IMG/VR virus record: IMGVR_UViG_3300045988_000869
From: a virus
DNA length: 5,853 nt
Direction: 5' to 3' (one strand)
The stretch's first letter is position 1; every line of letters begins with the position of its first letter. This document shows positions 100-5,735 of this stretch, in pieces. The position numbers and the translations under genes were made by a program. The notes below the pieces were generated by a model that made no database searches, was not told the origin of the DNA, and worked only from the letters and a program-made list of their open reading frames with translations.

Positions 100-110
100 A
101 GACTCGTCAA
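82..110 (-). promoter_or_regulatory. Sigma70-like promoter P1, candidate promoter of the long structural/replication operon; transcription would run across the circular junction
   Basis: The - strand reads TTGACG (110..105), a 17-nt spacer (AGTCTC + T10 + A), then TATACT (87..82). The -35 overlaps the TGA stop (109..107) of the 65-aa ORF. An AAAGGCAG box (81..74) follows the -10 and also occurs downstream of P2 (321..314). Confidence 0.5.
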
Positions 111-304
111 GCCTCTTTTGTGCATTTTTCCCAATCGAATTGTTTTGTATCTCCGTTCTTAAGGTTTGTCCTTTCAAGCTCCGTGTAACATTTTCCTTCT
201 GTGTCGATGTAGTCTTTCAGTTCGTAGTAGTATTTGCCGGATTCTGCGTGTCCGTAAATTTCGAGTTTCCCTATGGTGCTTTTGCTCAATCGTGGCTTTC
301 TCAT
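107..304 (-). CDS. Hypothetical 65-aa protein (orphan) with its own promoter. The track ORF 107..343 is trimmed to ATG 304..302
   Basis: Open frame MRKPRLSKSTIGKLEIYGHAESGKYYYELKDYIDTEGKCYTELERTNLKNGDTKQFDWEKCTKEA. The track start at 343 is a GTG lying inside the P2 spacer/-10, so it would not be on the transcript. ATG 304 sits about 20 nt downstream of the predicted start site, with a weak AGG/AAGG purine patch 8-12 nt upstream. Composition is not low-complexity. I recognise no family. Confidence 0.55.
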   Translation of the reverse strand: MRKPRLSKSTIGKLEIYGHAESGKYYYELKDYIDTEGKCYTELERTNLKNGDTKQFDWEKCTKEA

Positions 305-331
305 TTTTGTTACCTGCCTTTCTTTGATTAT

Positions 332-359
332 ATTATACCACACTTTTTGTATTTGTCAA
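332..359 (-). promoter_or_regulatory. Near-consensus sigma70 promoter P2 with extended -10
   Basis: The - strand reads TTGACA (359..354), a 16-nt spacer ending in TGG (340..338, the TGn extended -10), then TATAAT (337..332). Both hexamers match consensus perfectly. It lies directly upstream of the 65-aa ORF. Confidence 0.6.
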
Positions 360-468: not shown

Positions 469-642
469 TTCAACACTTTCAACACTTTCAACAGGTTTTC
501 AACAAAAAGTTGCACAAAAGGATTTGTGCATATTGCTACACTTTCAACATTTCAACAAGTTATCTACAAAAGTATCAACATTAAAATTAGCCAAAAAATA
601 TCGTTCCAAGGATAAAAATTCATAGTATTCAACATTTCAACA
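469..642. repeat. Iteron-like array of TTCAACA (TGTTGAA on the coding strand)
   Basis: There are eight perfect copies, at 469-475, 478-484, 487-493, 498-504, 543-549, 551-557, 628-634 and 636-642, plus the variant ATCAACA at 574-580. The first three are tandem with 9-nt spacing. The 15-mer TTCAACATTTCAACA occurs twice (543-557 and 628-642), 85 nt apart. Confidence 0.85.
511..530. promoter_or_regulatory. Perfect 20-bp palindrome or hairpin, operator-like
   Basis: TGCACAAA (511-518), AGGA loop, TTTGTGCA (523-530): 8-bp arms with a 4-nt spacer. It sits between two clusters of the TTCAACA array. Confidence 0.5.
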
Positions 643-647
643 CTCCC

Positions 648-690
648 TACTACTACGACTACAACAAGTAAATAATAAAATAATAATAAT
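648..690. repeat. Low-complexity trinucleotide-like tract
   Basis: TAC TAC TAC GAC TAC AAC AAG (648-668) is followed by TAA/AAT-type repeats taaataataaaataataataat (669-690). Confidence 0.6.
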
Positions 691-692
691 AT

Positions 693-733
693 CATGCGCG
701 TGTGTGCGCGATTACGTGCGCGCGCGTGCATGC
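693..733. repeat. Two alternating pyrimidine-purine (CG/TG) tracts, Z-DNA-prone or self-complementary
   Basis: CATGCGCGTGTGTGCGCG (693-710) is 18 nt of strict Y-R alternation. After ATT, ACGTGCGCGCGCGTGCATGC (714-733) is 20 nt of strict R-Y alternation. Many CGCG/GCGC self-complementary registers are possible. Confidence 0.7.
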
Positions 734-743
734 TGATAAAACT

Positions 744-792
744 AAAAAACACTCAGCCAAGTATCTATACTTGATAGTTACTTGGCTGAGTG
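744..792 (-). terminator. Rho-independent terminator ending the long operon, 9 nt after the VP4 stop
   Basis: The - strand reads CACTCAGCCAAGTA (792..779), a 15-nt loop that can add a 4-bp CTAT/ATAG inner stem, TACTTGGCTGAGTG (763..750), then TTTTTT (749..744). The stem is a perfect 14 bp. Confidence 0.8.
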
Positions 793-801
793 ACACCAGG
801 G

Positions 802-1821
802 CTAAAAAACGCCCTTTGCTTTGGACATCTTCTTCTTCATGATTGCTTCTTTGTCTGCCAGTTGTTCGGCATACTGTTTGTCAGTTTCCATGTTTCTTTC
901 GATTAGGGATGCAATGGCTTTTTCTTGTCGATACTGCTTGATTCTCCACGCCTTTTCAGGATTTTCAGTTTCCAGTTTTCTCCAATAATATTCTGGAATG
1001 GCTGCTCTCTTGCCGTTTGTCAGCTGGATGTATCCAAGTTGCCATAGCCTTTCTTGATTCTCTTGAAACCATTTGTCTCCGAGTCCTGGCTTTCGGCTCA
1101 TCACGCAGAATGGCGGTATGAGTCCCATTTTTTTGTACTTGTTTTTGTCGTTTCCGTACAGCTTCTTGGTCACATACCCAGCTACGTAGTTGTACGTTTC
1201 CGGCGTTGCTTGAGCTATATCAATTGTGCCTTGTCCCCAGATTTTGACTAGTTTGTCGCTCGTGTAGTGTCCAAATCTTGATAGTCTGTGAATCGGCTTT
1301 AAGTCGTCTGGATTCCACCCGTACAGTATCATGTGATAATGTGGTCTCGAGGTGTTGTCTCCATACTCTCCGGCTAGGAAGTACCTGAGAGGCTCTTTGA
1401 CGGCCTTTCTGAGTCTTTTCATGAATAACTGGATATCTTCCACGTTTAAGGTTTGCACCGTTCTGGGACGCTCTGAGGCGTCTCTCCATACGTTTATGCC
1501 CCCTTTGAAGATCTCTCCCGTTTCCGTGTCCTGTGTTGGTACATGGTCGTCATCATAGGTTAATGTGATAAACCAGATGCTTTCTTTGTTGTGGCTGTAT
1601 GCTTCCAGCTCCATTCGTGTGCTCCAGTCTTTGCGCTTGCGTAGCTTGCATCCTGTGCATTGTCCACACGGTATTATCATCACATCTTTGCGATACATTA
1701 GGTCTTCATATCTCATTTCGGTCTTATGAACTTTGTTAAAAGAAGCGAGTGAGTACACTCGCCCACTCGCTTCTCTATCATGAGGTACATAAAACCGGAT
1801 TAACGGTTTGTTGCATCCCAT
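802..1821 (-). CDS. VP4: VP4 replication initiation protein (HUH rolling-circle endonuclease, phiX174 protein A-like)
   Basis: 339-aa ORF with ATG at 1821..1819. Visible hallmarks are the N-terminal Cys cluster IPCGQCTGCKLRKRKDW, RCR motif 1 WFITLTY, HUH motif 2 RPHYHMILYG, and motif 3 with paired tyrosines YNYVAGYVTKK (two-tyrosine active site as in phiX174 protein A). The start abuts the VP2 stop (TAAATG). Confidence 0.95.
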   Translation of the reverse strand: MGCNKPLIRFYVPHDREASGRVYSLASFNKVHKTEMRYEDLMYRKDVMIIPCGQCTGCKLRKRKDWSTRMELEAYSHNKESIWFITLTYDDDHVPTQDTETGEIFKGGINVWRDASERPRTVQTLNVEDIQLFMKRLRKAVKEPLRYFLAGEYGDNTSRPHYHMILYGWNPDDLKPIHRLSRFGHYTSDKLVKIWGQGTIDIAQATPETYNYVAGYVTKKLYGNDKNKYKKMGLIPPFCVMSRKPGLGDKWFQENQERLWQLGYIQLTNGKRAAIPEYYWRKLETENPEKAWRIKQYRQEKAIASLIERNMETDKQYAEQLADKEAIMKKKMSKAKGVF

Positions 1822-4524: not shown

Positions 4525-5000
4525 TCAGTGGTTTCCTCCTCTTTAGGCTTTTCAGGCTCTTTCTCCTGATAGATTCCCAGATTTTTTGCCCAGTCAACAG
4601 TGCCGAAGCTTGCGACAAACTTGTCAACGTCATTGTCAAACTTGAGCTTGATTTCTTTCGGGATTTCATCCCAGATTTGTTCTGCTCGGAGCATGATGTT
4701 CTGAAGCTCCATCAGATTCTCCGGCATCTCGGTTGCGTCCTGAAGCCCACCGCCCATATCCGGCATCAGTCTAGCTGCAAGGTCAGGGTCGATGGATGCT
4801 CGGCGGATGATGTTCTCTAATTTGGTTTCTTCTAGATAGCTGTCAATTTCTGCTTGCTGGTCGATGATCTGATCAAGGGTTAGTACCTTTTCGCCCTTCT
4901 CGTTGAGCTCCCAGAGGTATGTTCGCCTGATGCTCTCTCCGGCCTCGGTAGGTTTTGCAGTTGCGGTTTCTCTGAAATTACTTACTGAGCGATACGCCAT
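4521..5000 (-). CDS. VP3: VP3 internal scaffolding protein (Chlamydia-phage-type scaffold). The track ORF is trimmed to ATG 5000..4998 (159 aa)
   Basis: The track start at 5048 is a TTG with no RBS. ATG 5000 has AAGGAG (5016..5011) 10 nt upstream. The protein is acidic, and the C-terminal half MPENLMELQNIMLRAEQIWDEIPKEIKLKFDNDVDKFVASF matches the pattern I associate with gokushovirus VP3 (F..LP..I+..F.ND...F). It is coupled to VP1 by an ATGA overlap. Confidence 0.8.
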   Translation of the reverse strand: MAYRSVSNFRETATAKPTEAGESIRRTYLWELNEKGEKVLTLDQIIDQQAEIDSYLEETKLENIIRRASIDPDLAARLMPDMGGGLQDATEMPENLMELQNIMLRAEQIWDEIPKEIKLKFDNDVDKFVASFGTVDWAKNLGIYQEKEPEKPKEEETTE

Positions 5001-5214
5001 CGAAGATGTTCTCCTTTTCGTTCTCAAACAGGCCCGTTTTTTCGTCAAACTTTGCCAGGCGTACTAACCGATAGTCGCTGGCCGCTTTGCTCATGATGTT
5101 GTTTTCGTCGGTGAGCGCGATTTTGAAGTTGCGTTCTGCAACCTTGTCGTCACGCTCGTTGAAGGTCGTAATGTAGCCGTTGACACAGCGGTCATAGATT
5201 CCGTATACGTTCAT
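4978..5214 (-). CDS. Small non-structural protein resembling the gokushovirus ORF5/VP5 family
   Basis: 78-aa ORF with ATG at 5214..5212 and AAGGAG (5226..5221) 6 nt upstream. The pattern MNVYGIYD...AERNF...DYRLVRLAKFDEKTGLF resembles the (I/V)(F/Y)D ... A.R.F ... D(F/Y).L..LG.FD..TG signature I recall from small conserved gokushovirus proteins. The family assignment is from memory, not a search. Confidence 0.6.
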   Translation of the reverse strand: MNVYGIYDRCVNGYITTFNERDDKVAERNFKIALTDENNIMSKAASDYRLVRLAKFDEKTGLFENEKENIFDGVSLSK

Positions 5215-5224
5215 GTTATTCTCC

Positions 5225-5323
5225 TTACTTGAACCATTCCTTGATGATGTCGATTGTATTAATGACGAGGTAAAAACCCGCTGCGAGAAATGCCATAGTC
5301 ATGCTTGCGAATACAGCGCTCAC
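5225..5323 (-). CDS. Unannotated 32-aa hydrophobic (single transmembrane-like) peptide; 25 aa if started at ATG 5302
   Basis: My own translation of the - strand gives GTG(5323..5321)-SAVFASMTMAFLAAGFYLVINTIDIIKEWFK-TAA(5227..5225). The GTG overlaps the TGA stop of the upstream J-like gene as GTGA. The TAA overlaps the AAGGAG RBS of the next gene. The ORF exactly fills the only unexplained gap (5215-5319) in a tightly packed operon. It falls below the size cut-off of the ORF track. Confidence 0.45.
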   Translation of the reverse strand: MSAVFASMTMAFLAAGFYLVINTIDIIKEWFK

Positions 5324-5439
5324 AGGCGGATGCCCCCTCTCATCGCTCCGCTTCCCAGGTTGATGGCCTTGGTTTTGCGTGCGGTCTTGTTGTAGATTTT
5401 TGCGTCTTTGGATTTGCGGACTTTATTCCTCTTTGCCAT
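5320..5439 (-). CDS. Small highly basic DNA-binding protein (phiX174 J-like / gokushovirus ORF8-like), 39 aa
   Basis: MAKRNKVRKSKDAKIYNKTARKTKAINLGSGAMRGGIRL has 13 of 39 residues as K/R. I recognise the C-terminal MRGGIRL as typical of small basic microvirus proteins. The track start (5511) is a TTG inside the upstream ORF. ATG 5439 has a GAAGGGA patch about 10 nt upstream. Confidence 0.65.
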   Translation of the reverse strand: MAKRNKVRKSKDAKIYNKTARKTKAINLGSGAMRGGIRL

Positions 5440-5651: not shown

Positions 5652-5735
5652 TCAAGCCTCCGGTTTGTCCCTTGTTACTGCGTGGTAGATTTTGTCCAGT
5701 ATGGCAAGGATTTTTTGGATGTTTTCAAACAGCAT
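5652..5735 (-). CDS. Possible 27-aa leader ORF
   Basis: My own translation gives ATG(5735..5733) MLFENIQKILAILDKIYHAVTRDKPEA TGA(5654..5652). The stop is 1 nt before the ATG of the 75-aa ORF and the ORF spans that gene's GGAGG. No convincing RBS of its own is visible. Confidence 0.25.
   Translation of the reverse strand: MLFENIQKILAILDKIYHAVTRDKPEA

What the first reader, a model, noticed from the sequence alone, without database searches (positions are those of the whole stretch)
5225..5323. Hidden 32-aa transmembrane-like ORF between the J-like gene and the VP5-like gene: candidate single-gene lysis or membrane protein
The ORF is too small for the ORF track but exactly fills the only unexplained gap in the operon. 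It is linked upstream by a GTGA stop/start overlap and downstream by a TAA embedded in the next RBS. It encodes about 22 consecutive hydrophobic residues (SAVFASMTMAFLAAGFYLVINTI) followed by an amphipathic charged tail (DIIKEWFK). Gokushoviruses lack a recognisable homologue of phiX174 lysis protein E, and how most of them lyse the host is unresolved. Small one-helix peptides are the known format of single-gene lysis proteins in small phages.
Basis: partly seen in the sequence, partly recalled or inferred. Interest (0 to 1): 0.65.

Follow-up and report, generated by a model that had tools for sequence, protein, structure and literature searches.

The report
Hidden membrane micro-gene in gut gokushovirus
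A 32-codon reading frame between two known genes of this small gut phage is very likely a real gene for a one-helix membrane peptide; it is the best candidate for a lysis-related factor here, but that role is unproven and close relatives do without it.

Summary
On the minus strand, 5323-5225 is a 32-codon ORF. It starts at a GTG inside a GTGA overlap with the stop of the J/VP8-like gene. It ends in a TAA that begins the TAAGGAG ribosome-binding site of VP5.

It is very likely a real gene. Among the window plus 68 related genomes, 41 carry the insert. Forty copies are open and one has a 1-nt insertion. Pooled dN/dS is 0.33-0.39 in frame, against 0.8-1.9 out of frame. Indels keep the frame. All full-length variants stay hydrophobic enough for one membrane helix. 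A small-residue stripe and an I-D/N-I-I/V-K-x-W tail are conserved. The start site is the one that drives VP5 in relatives lacking the ORF.

It is an accessory gene. Twenty-eight close relatives and five outgroups join J directly or almost directly to VP5, and the ORF-less close relatives show no substitute small membrane ORF. No homologue exists outside this clade.

A lysis-related role is plausible. The genome has no endolysin. More distant relatives carry an M15 peptidase, an amidase or a holin-family gene in the same neighbourhood. But this role is not shown; I put it at about 0.45. Superinfection exclusion, or a phiX174 K-like modulator, remain open.

The parts
5225..5323 (-). 32-codon ORF (GTG start, TAA stop) for a single-pass membrane micro-protein, MSAVFASMTMAFLAAGFYLVINTIDIIKEWFK
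   Evidence: sequence; an ORF at the same place in 41 of 69 genomes; dN/dS 0.33-0.39 in frame against 0.8-1.9 out of frame; called as a gene in a Logan contig and in NCBI nr DAW89936.1, 'hypothetical protein'.
5252..5320 (-). Codons 2-24: the uncharged hydrophobic segment (predicted transmembrane helix), with a conserved small-residue stripe (G/S, A, A, G/A/S) and conserved F and L
   Evidence: KD19 maximum 1.93-2.57 in all 32 full-length variants; only the 28-aa deletion allele (1.86) and the frameshifted copy (1.62) fall lower; conserved alignment columns G8, A15, A19, F21, L23; continuous helix.
5228..5251 (-). Codons 25-32: the amphipathic juxtamembrane tail DIIKEWFK. With I24 it forms the family-wide motif I-D/N-I-I/V-K-x-W.
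   Evidence: I30, K32 and W34 are invariant across 34 distinct peptides; hydrophobic moment 0.63; some synonymous variation occurs within the motif.
5320..5323 (-). GTGA start/stop overlap: GTG starts the micro-ORF and TGA stops the J-like gene
   Evidence: The junction reads NTGA in all 69 genomes, with N = G (most), A or T; each gives a start codon. In ORF-less genomes the same codon starts VP5.
5333..5339 (-). Shine-Dalgarno-like GAGGGGG (GAGGAGG in relatives), 9 nt upstream of the GTG and embedded in the J codons for M-R-G-G
   Evidence: It is present in the sampled genomes with and without the ORF.
5221..5227 (-). TAAGGAG: stop codon of the micro-ORF fused to the Shine-Dalgarno site of VP5 (ATG at 5214)
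5320..5439 (-). Upstream neighbour: 39-aa basic J/VP8-like DNA-binding protein
   Evidence: phrog_10695, E 5e-9; the homologue is annotated 'DNA binding protein' in PQ007391; dN/dS 0.03-0.05.
4978..5214 (-). Downstream neighbour: VP5 (Phage_ORF5)
   Evidence: dN/dS 0.03-0.06.

Best explanation
This is a genuine, lineage-specific accessory gene of a clade of mammalian-gut gokushoviruses.

Shown, or nearly so: ribosomes finishing the J/VP8-like gene, or loading on the GAGG(G/A)GG site inside its last codons, start at the GTG of the GTGA overlap. They make a 32-aa peptide (38 aa in a sister allele). The peptide is one hydrophobic helix followed by a short amphipathic tail.

Inferred:
- It inserts into the host cytoplasmic membrane with the N-terminus out and the C-terminus in. 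The tail is positively charged in the 38-aa allele and the N-terminus carries no charge.
- It acts through in-membrane helix packing along its conserved small-residue face. The I-D-I-I-K-x-W motif sits at the cytoplasmic interface.
- Its most likely role is an optional lysis or egress factor, by one of two routes. It may self-associate and collapse the membrane potential, as holins and type-I toxins do, so that host autolysins are unleashed. Or it may block a membrane step of cell-wall precursor supply, as phiX174 E and LysM do.

It is not the universal lysis gene of the group, because sister genomes lack it.
For: Real coding gene:
- 41 of 69 genomes carry the insert. Forty copies are open. 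The one exception is a 1-nt insertion in a G-rich run, with the rest of the frame intact.
- There is one in-frame 10-codon deletion. The alleles differ by whole codons (32, 33 and 38).
- dN/dS is 0.33-0.39 in frame against 0.8-1.9 in the other frames, and the other frames hold stops.
- The second codon position varies least.
- The start stays a start codon (GTG, ATG or TTG).
- The same start site and Shine-Dalgarno site initiate the highly conserved VP5 gene in ORF-less relatives, so the site is functional.
- The region is not an RNA element: fold z-score -1.2 and no Rfam match.

Membrane helix:
- The KD19 maximum is 1.93-2.57 in all 32 full-length variants despite fast sequence change. Only the 28-aa deletion allele (1.86) and the frameshifted copy (1.62) fall lower.
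- Only 1% of simulated genomes contain such an ORF.
- AlphaFold2 gives a single helix.
- Small residues are conserved with a spacing of 3-4.

Lysis-related role:
- Pfam and PHROGs find no endolysin, peptidase or holin in the window.
- It is the only consistently open small membrane-like ORF on the coding strand of 61 genomes.
- More distant relatives keep lysis genes in the same neighbourhood. These are Peptidase_M15_3 upstream of J (L131-L134), Amidase_3 abutting VP5 (L136), and a Phage_holin_6_1 / phrog_6918 holin gene abutting J in a Clostridia prophage with no endolysin found by Pfam scans of its larger ORFs (L137).
- Lysis-associated genes are known to be patchy accessory genes in microviruses (PMC9239249, PMC3394797).
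- Gokushoviruses lack an E homologue (PMC7062461).
- The ORF meets the three Sgl screening criteria of PMC7693330.
Against: - 28 of 69 genomes, most of one VP1 clade, and outgroups L130-L134 have no such ORF. The ORF-less close relatives also have no substitute small membrane ORF and no endolysin-sized accessory ORF family. So phages of this clade appear to complete their cycle without it.
- The E. coli gokushovirus EC6098 lyses its host with only six core genes (PMC7062461).
- There is no similarity to any lysis family, PDB chain or other protein outside the clade.
- The most conserved part is the cytoplasmic tail, not the helix.
- Few TMD-bearing small phage ORFs turn out to be lytic (33 of 293 toxic, 7 lytic; PMC7693330).
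- The host is unknown. Translation and membrane insertion have not been observed.
Confidence: 0.45

Rival explanations
1. A membrane micro-protein with a non-lytic accessory role in phage-host or phage-phage conflict. It might exclude superinfecting phages by blocking genome entry at the inner membrane, or interfere with a host membrane protein such as a defence or transport component.
For: - The distribution is patchy and lineage-specific, and allele types do not follow the VP1 tree, as is typical of conflict genes.
- The protein evolves 6-12 times faster than its neighbours at the same synonymous divergence: dN/dS 0.33-0.39 against 0.03-0.06.
- Related gokushoviruses are lysogenic: prophages L137 and L138 sit in Clostridia MAGs.
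- EC6098 confers superinfection immunity (PMC7062461).
- ORF-less relatives appear to complete the lytic cycle without it.
Against: - It sits inside the structural and late gene string and is translationally coupled to J, rather than behind its own promoter as many exclusion genes are.
- It has no similarity to any PADLOC or known exclusion family.
- There is no direct evidence for it.
Confidence: 0.25
2. A phiX174 K-like non-essential membrane modulator. It would tune burst size, or the timing or membrane localisation of replication and assembly, without itself causing lysis.
For: - It is dispensable in sister genomes.
- It is small and hydrophobic, and expressed together with DNA-packaging-related genes (J upstream, VP5 downstream).
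- The conserved cytoplasmic tail could contact a phage protein.
- From my own knowledge, not checked here: phiX174 K is a small, hydrophobic, non-essential protein that raises burst size.
Against: - It shows no sequence relation to any Pfam family.
- The role is vague and hard to distinguish from the others by sequence.
- K is overprinted on other genes, whereas this ORF stands alone.
Confidence: 0.15
3. The peptide itself has no function. The ORF is only a translational-coupling spacer that sets the VP5 expression level, or a recently inserted piece of DNA that happens to be open.
For: - The ORF took over the ancestral VP5 start site and delivers ribosomes to a new VP5 Shine-Dalgarno site.
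- In the 38-aa allele the W-R codons (TGGAGG) form the VP5 Shine-Dalgarno site.
- The tail codons show little synonymous variation.
- Purifying selection is only moderate.
Against: - A pure spacer would not keep a transmembrane-grade hydrophobic helix in 32 distinct full-length variants, when chance gives one in 1% of genomes.
- It would not show dN/dS well below the out-of-frame controls.
- It would not keep W invariant in the 32-aa allele, where W is not part of the Shine-Dalgarno site.
- It would not preserve the frame through indels.
Confidence: 0.08

Closest known systems
LysM (Sgl of levivirus M), a 37-aa single-helix inhibitor of the lipid II flippase MurJ
   Same: Almost the same size and format: one transmembrane helix plus a few polar residues. 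It is encoded by a very small phage with no endolysin, and the family is clade-restricted and young (PMC12506998, PMC7693330).
   Different: No sequence similarity (no PDB hit). LysM belongs to an RNA phage. The target and lytic activity of the ORF here are untested. This ORF stands alone between two genes.
phiX174 protein E, a 91-aa Sgl that inhibits MraY
   Same: It comes from the same virus family (Microviridae). It has an N-terminal transmembrane helix with, from my own knowledge, an N-out/C-in orientation and a basic C-terminal part. It is the only microvirus lysis mechanism that has been worked out (PMC3394797).
   Different: E is overprinted inside scaffold gene D and needs a proline in its helix and the host chaperone SlyD (my knowledge). 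The ORF here is free-standing, a third of the length, and has no proline in any of the 35 distinct variants. It matches no Pfam family.
Holins, in particular the Phage_holin_6_1 (Holin_LLH) gene next to the J-like gene in the Clostridia gokushovirus prophage L137
   Same: It is a membrane protein gene in the same J/VP5-proximal position of a related phage. It has a single N-terminal transmembrane helix followed by a charged part. Pfam scans of the larger ORFs of that prophage found no endolysin either.
   Different: The L137 protein is 112 aa and matches a curated holin family. The ORF here is 32-38 aa, shorter than the established holins I know of, and matches no holin model.
Type I toxin peptides of bacteria, such as Fst (33 aa) and TisB (29 aa)
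   Same: Same size and layout: a hydrophobic helix and then a short charged tail. Those peptides depolarise the membrane by self-association (my knowledge).
   Different: They are bacterial or plasmid genes controlled by antisense RNA. There is no sequence relation, and no antisense partner was looked for here.
phiX174 protein K
   Same: It is a small, hydrophobic, non-essential accessory protein of a microvirus (my knowledge). This matches the dispensability seen here.
   Different: K is overprinted across the A/B/C genes and is unrelated in sequence. Its role is burst-size modulation, not lysis.

Membership tests
Sgl candidate, by the operational screen of Chamakura et al. 2020 (PMC7693330) | ORF of at least 25 codons with an ATG, GTG or TTG start | tested here: met
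   32 codons with a GTG start; 28-38 codons in relatives.
Sgl candidate, by the operational screen of Chamakura et al. 2020 (PMC7693330) | A legitimate Shine-Dalgarno sequence | tested here: met
   GAGGGGG or GAGGAGG lies 9 nt upstream. The same site serves VP5 in ORF-less genomes.
Sgl candidate, by the operational screen of Chamakura et al. 2020 (PMC7693330) | A predicted transmembrane domain | tested here: met
   KD19 maximum 2.03 (1.93-2.57 across the 32 full-length variants). The Hessa-scale sum is about 0 or below for most variants. AlphaFold2 gives a single helix. TMHMM and DeepTMHMM were not available.
Sgl (functional definition) | Expression alone causes host lysis | not testable with these tools
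   This needs an induction experiment.
phiX174 E family (MraY-inhibiting lysis protein) | Sequence homology to E | tested here: not met
   No Pfam or PHROG family at E <= 0.1. No PDB chain at E <= 10. Only 3 clusters, all 32 aa, in 1.84 billion representatives.
phiX174 E family (MraY-inhibiting lysis protein) | A conserved proline within the transmembrane helix; gene overprinted in the scaffold gene | tested here: not met
   No proline in any full-length variant. The ORF is free-standing between J and VP5.
Canonical holin | Match to a holin family model | tested here: not met
   No Pfam or PHROG hit. By contrast, the L137 neighbour protein does match Phage_holin_6_1.
Canonical holin | A partner endolysin gene in the same genome | tested here: not met
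   No peptidase, amidase or lysozyme domain in any window ORF tested. Distant relatives have M15 or Amidase_3.
Canonical holin | At least one transmembrane domain plus a charged, hydrophilic C-terminus | tested here: met
   A helix followed by DIIKEWFK or DIIKNWRKSK. The tail is only 8-10 residues long.
Gokushovirinae core gene set | Present in all or nearly all members at a fixed position | tested here: not met
   Absent from 28 of 69 clade genomes and from outgroups L130-L134.
Superinfection-exclusion membrane proteins | Blocks entry of related phages when expressed | not testable with these tools
   No sequence signature exists for this. PADLOC gave no hit.

The most novel reading that the evidence does not exclude
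The ORF is a newly born single-gene lysis protein of gut gokushoviruses. At 32-38 aa it would be among the smallest known, and the first lysis effector identified for Gokushovirinae. It would have arisen by insertion at the J-VP5 junction, and would kill by membrane depolarisation or by blocking a lipid II pathway enzyme of an anaerobic gut host.
Probability: 0.3. Interest if true: 0.8.

Novelty: new member of a known kind. Interest (0 to 1): 0.5.

Why it matters
Gokushoviruses are among the commonest phages of the gut. The papers I read report no E-type lysis gene in gokushoviruses (PMC7062461), and the literature searches here found no lysis effector described for them beyond horizontally acquired peptidases.

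This ORF gives a concrete, very small, synthesisable candidate. Nature has also supplied controls: sister genomes without it, two diverged alleles (32 and 38 aa), a 10-codon deletion allele and a frameshifted copy.

If it is lytic, it would be a new 'protein antibiotic' pointing at a weak spot in the envelope of anaerobic gut bacteria. If it is not, it is still an unannotated, conserved phage membrane micro-protein. It would also be a clean example of a gene inserted at a translational-coupling junction, where the newcomer takes over the old start site and the displaced gene gains a new ribosome-binding site.

Tried and rejected
- The same tool run with VP5 returned only close relatives (78% identity or more), so it did not reach distant gokushoviruses.
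- tblastn of both peptide alleles against GenBank phages found only the five close relatives, plus one chance hit in a Staphylococcus phage tape-measure gene at E = 5.
- Searches of PDB, NCBIfam and PADLOC found nothing significant for the peptide; the only listing was a chance NCBIfam match at E = 0.1 for the 38-aa allele.
- An exhaustive phmmer search found only the family itself.
- I rejected an RNA-structure explanation: fold z-score -1.2, and no Rfam match.
- I rejected a second membrane-like ORF (window 564-752, minus strand) as a rival lysis gene. Its boundaries are inconsistent between genomes (27-62 aa). It lies in a non-coding region that is 79-98% identical in nucleotides across 56 related genomes.
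- I ignored the many hydrophobic ORFs on the antisense strand, because all recognised genes lie on one strand.
- I looked for a compensating gene in the ORF-less genomes and found none. There was no small membrane ORF, and no peptidase-sized accessory ORF cluster enriched in that group. Those ORFs were clustered but not scanned against Pfam.
- The host search gave only relatives with 45-47% VP1 identity in Clostridia MAGs, so the host of the window's own clade remains unknown.
- Literature searches found no paper describing this ORF, or any small transmembrane lysis gene in gokushoviruses.

Full report
**What the window is.** The 5853-base window looks like a complete or near-complete gokushovirus genome, with all recognisable genes on the minus strand.
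- VP4 replication initiator, 1821-802
- VP2 pilot protein, 2670-1822
- VP1 capsid protein, 4524-2812
- VP3 scaffold protein, 5048-4521
- VP5, 5214-4978
- A 39-aa basic J/VP8-like protein, 5439-5320
- A 75-aa ORF, 5650-5423

These assignments rest on Pfam and PHROG matches.

**The observation.**
- Its GTG start lies in a GTGA overlap with the J stop codon.
- Its TAA stop is fused to the TAAGGAG ribosome-binding site of VP5.
- Residues 1-24 carry no charge. The best 19-residue Kyte-Doolittle window averages 2.03.
- The last 8-11 residues form an amphipathic stretch.
- AlphaFold2 predicts one continuous helix.

A membrane-grade ORF of this length is unexpected on this A-rich, T-poor strand. It appeared in 1% of 300 Markov simulations. 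The only inaccuracy is the phrase 'the only unexplained gap': a 141-nt VP1-VP2 spacer and about 1 kb of sequence beyond VP4 are also unassigned.

**Relatives.** I compared the window with 8 GenBank genomes and 60 IMG/VR contigs whose VP5 is 77-96% identical. Between the J stop and the VP5 start there are only two states.
- In 41 of 69 genomes there is a 79-117-nt insert, 105-117 nt in all but the deletion allele. It always opens at the NTGA overlap with the J stop.
- In the other 28 genomes there is no insert at all. VP5 itself starts at that same (G/A)TGA.

Of the 41 inserts, 40 are open. The exception (L015) has a single-base insertion in a G-rich run, and the rest of the frame, including the tail motif, is intact downstream. 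The alleles are 32-33 aa (several subtypes) and 38 aa. One 28-aa allele is an in-frame 10-codon deletion.

**Evidence for coding.**
- Pooled Nei-Gojobori dN/dS is 0.33 for the 32-aa type (21 sequences) and 0.39 for the 38-aa type (14 sequences). The two alternative frames give 0.8-1.9 and hold stop codons.
- The second codon position varies least.
- The start is GTG in most genomes, ATG once and TTG once.
- Despite the sequence divergence, all 32 full-length variants keep a KD19 maximum of 1.93-2.57.
- Across both allele types there is a conserved stripe of small residues with 3-4 spacing (alignment columns G8, A15, A19), plus F21, L23 and the motif I-D/N-I-I/V-K-x-W.
- The neighbouring genes J and VP5 have dN/dS of 0.03-0.06 at the same synonymous divergence. 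The micro-protein is therefore constrained, but evolves 6-12 times faster than they do.
- RNA folding of the region is unremarkable (z = -1.2), and no Rfam family matches anywhere in the window.

**The start site.** This is the strongest argument that the frame is translated. The Shine-Dalgarno-like GAGG(G/A)GG lies 9 nt upstream of the start, inside the J codons for M-R-G-G, in the sampled genomes of both kinds. In ORF-less genomes it must drive the highly conserved VP5 gene.

The insert has therefore captured the ancestral VP5 initiation site. VP5 received a new site in exchange: TAAGGAG in the 32-aa type, and TGGAGG inside the W-R codons in the 38-aa type.

Gene callers have already picked the frame up elsewhere (a Logan contig, and NCBI nr DAW89936.1 and DAW87971.1, both 'hypothetical protein'). 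The GenBank genomes of the clade leave it unannotated.

**Distribution.**
- On a VP1 tree of 40 genomes, one major clade is almost entirely ORF-less (12 without, 1 with).
- The other clade mostly carries the ORF (24 with, 3 without). The 32-aa and 38-aa alleles are intermixed on the tree, which suggests recombination and occasional loss (compare).
- Five more distant gokushoviruses with the same upstream module (small ORF, 75-aa ORF, J) join J directly or nearly directly to VP5. The ORF therefore looks like a gain in one lineage.
- An exhaustive HMMER search of 1.84 billion representative proteins found only three clusters, all 32 aa long.
- tblastn against GenBank phages found only the five close relatives, plus one chance hit at E = 5.
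- The peptide matches no Pfam, PHROG, PADLOC or PDB entry. The only NCBIfam listing is a chance match at E = 0.1 for the 38-aa allele.

**Function: for a lysis-related role.**
- The window has no endolysin-like or holin-like domain.
- On the coding strand of 61 genomes, this is the only consistently open small ORF with a membrane-grade segment.
- It passes the three screening criteria used to find leviviral single-gene lysis proteins (PMC7693330).
- More distant relatives keep recognisable lysis genes in this neighbourhood. These are Peptidase_M15_3 upstream of J (L131-L134) and Amidase_3 abutting VP5 (L136). A Phage_holin_6_1 gene (25.6 bits against a cut-off of 24.9; phrog_6918 holin, E 7.7e-8) overlaps the start of the J-like gene in prophage L137. 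That prophage is integrated in a Clostridia MAG, and Pfam scans of its larger ORFs found no endolysin.
- The literature agrees that lysis-associated genes are patchy accessory genes in microviruses, and that gokushoviruses lack an E homologue (PMC9239249, PMC3394797, PMC7062461).

**Function: against a lysis-related role.**
- The 28 ORF-less relatives have no substitute small membrane ORF and no peptidase-sized accessory ORF cluster.
- EC6098 lyses E. coli with six core genes (PMC7062461).
- Most TMD-bearing candidates in the leviviral screen were inert: 33 of 293 were toxic and 7 were lytic (PMC7693330).
- The most conserved part of the peptide is the cytoplasmic tail.

**My weighting.** The ORF is a real membrane micro-protein gene with probability about 0.9. 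An optional lysis or egress factor is the single most likely role (about 0.45). Next come superinfection exclusion or another conflict function (0.25), a phiX174 K-like modulator (0.15), and a functionless coupling spacer (0.08).

**Mechanism: shown and inferred.**
- Shown by sequence: the coupled start, the conserved frame, the hydrophobic helix and the conserved small-residue face and tail.
- Inferred from the positive-inside rule: an N-out/C-in orientation. The 38-aa tail has a net charge of +2 to +3 in the commonest variants (for example DIIKNWRKSK), and the N-terminus is uncharged.
- Inferred only by analogy: self-association or target binding through the small-residue face, followed by depolarisation or a block of wall-precursor supply and then autolysis.

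**Host.** The host of this clade is unknown. The nearest prophages (45-47% VP1 identity) are in Clostridia MAGs.

Noticed in passing
window 534-812 (minus strand), immediately after the VP4 stop at 802: A non-coding block of about 270 nt is 79-98% identical in nucleotides (mostly 84-93%) across 56 of the 60 related genomes, apparently more conserved than the neighbouring coding DNA. It begins with a 19-bp hairpin (750-768 / 774-792) followed by TTTTTT, like an intrinsic terminator. Next comes an alternating purine-pyrimidine tract (GCACGCGCGCGCACGTAATCGCGCACACACGCGC), and then an AT-rich stretch. This is probably the terminator plus an origin or promoter region. It produces a spurious 62-aa 'membrane-like' ORF (564-752) whose boundaries differ between genomes.
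   Followed up: partly
window 5652-5735 (minus strand); also L130:267-365, L131:114-311, L134:214-330: A micro-ORF lies just upstream of the 75-aa ORF (MLFENIQKILAILDKIYHAVTRDKPEA here; 32-38 aa with the core ILxKLDxIYH in relatives). It is conserved even in outgroups whose VP5 is 26-36% identical. It is unannotated in the GenBank records inspected and has no family match.
   Followed up: partly
L137 6589-11627 (JAFQUU010000009.1, Clostridia MAG from goat colon) and L138 (CALVOB010000061.1): Two gokushovirus prophages are integrated in Clostridia MAG contigs, next to host aminoacyl-tRNA synthetase-like genes. Both carry a small ribbon-helix-helix-like ORF after VP4. L137 also has a Holin_LLH-family gene overlapping the start of the J-like gene, and Pfam scans of its larger ORFs found no endolysin. 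This is evidence for lysogenic gokushoviruses in Firmicutes that carry a holin-family gene.
   Followed up: partly
L137 7021-7230; L136 123-704: The junction just upstream of VP5 looks like a hotspot for gene insertion. In L137 an unrelated 69-aa ORF starts at an ATGA overlap with the J stop. In L136 an Amidase_3 gene abuts VP5 with an overlap.
   Followed up: partly
L049 / L110 (IMGVR_UViG_3300045988_002334): One allele has an in-frame 10-codon deletion, leaving a 28-aa peptide. Its hydrophobic stretch is probably too short to span a bilayer, so it may be a natural loss-of-function or altered-function allele.
   Followed up: no
window 107-343 (minus strand): A 78-aa ORF lies in the variable region beyond VP4 and has no family match. 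Homologues occur in only 13 of 61 related genomes, so it is another patchy accessory ORF. Other genomes carry different 64-80-aa ORFs in that region.
   Followed up: partly
GenBank relatives L001-L008: The five GenBank relatives that carry the ORF come from human or monkey faeces. The three that lack it come from pig faeces. This may mean that ORF presence tracks the host or the animal reservoir.
   Followed up: no
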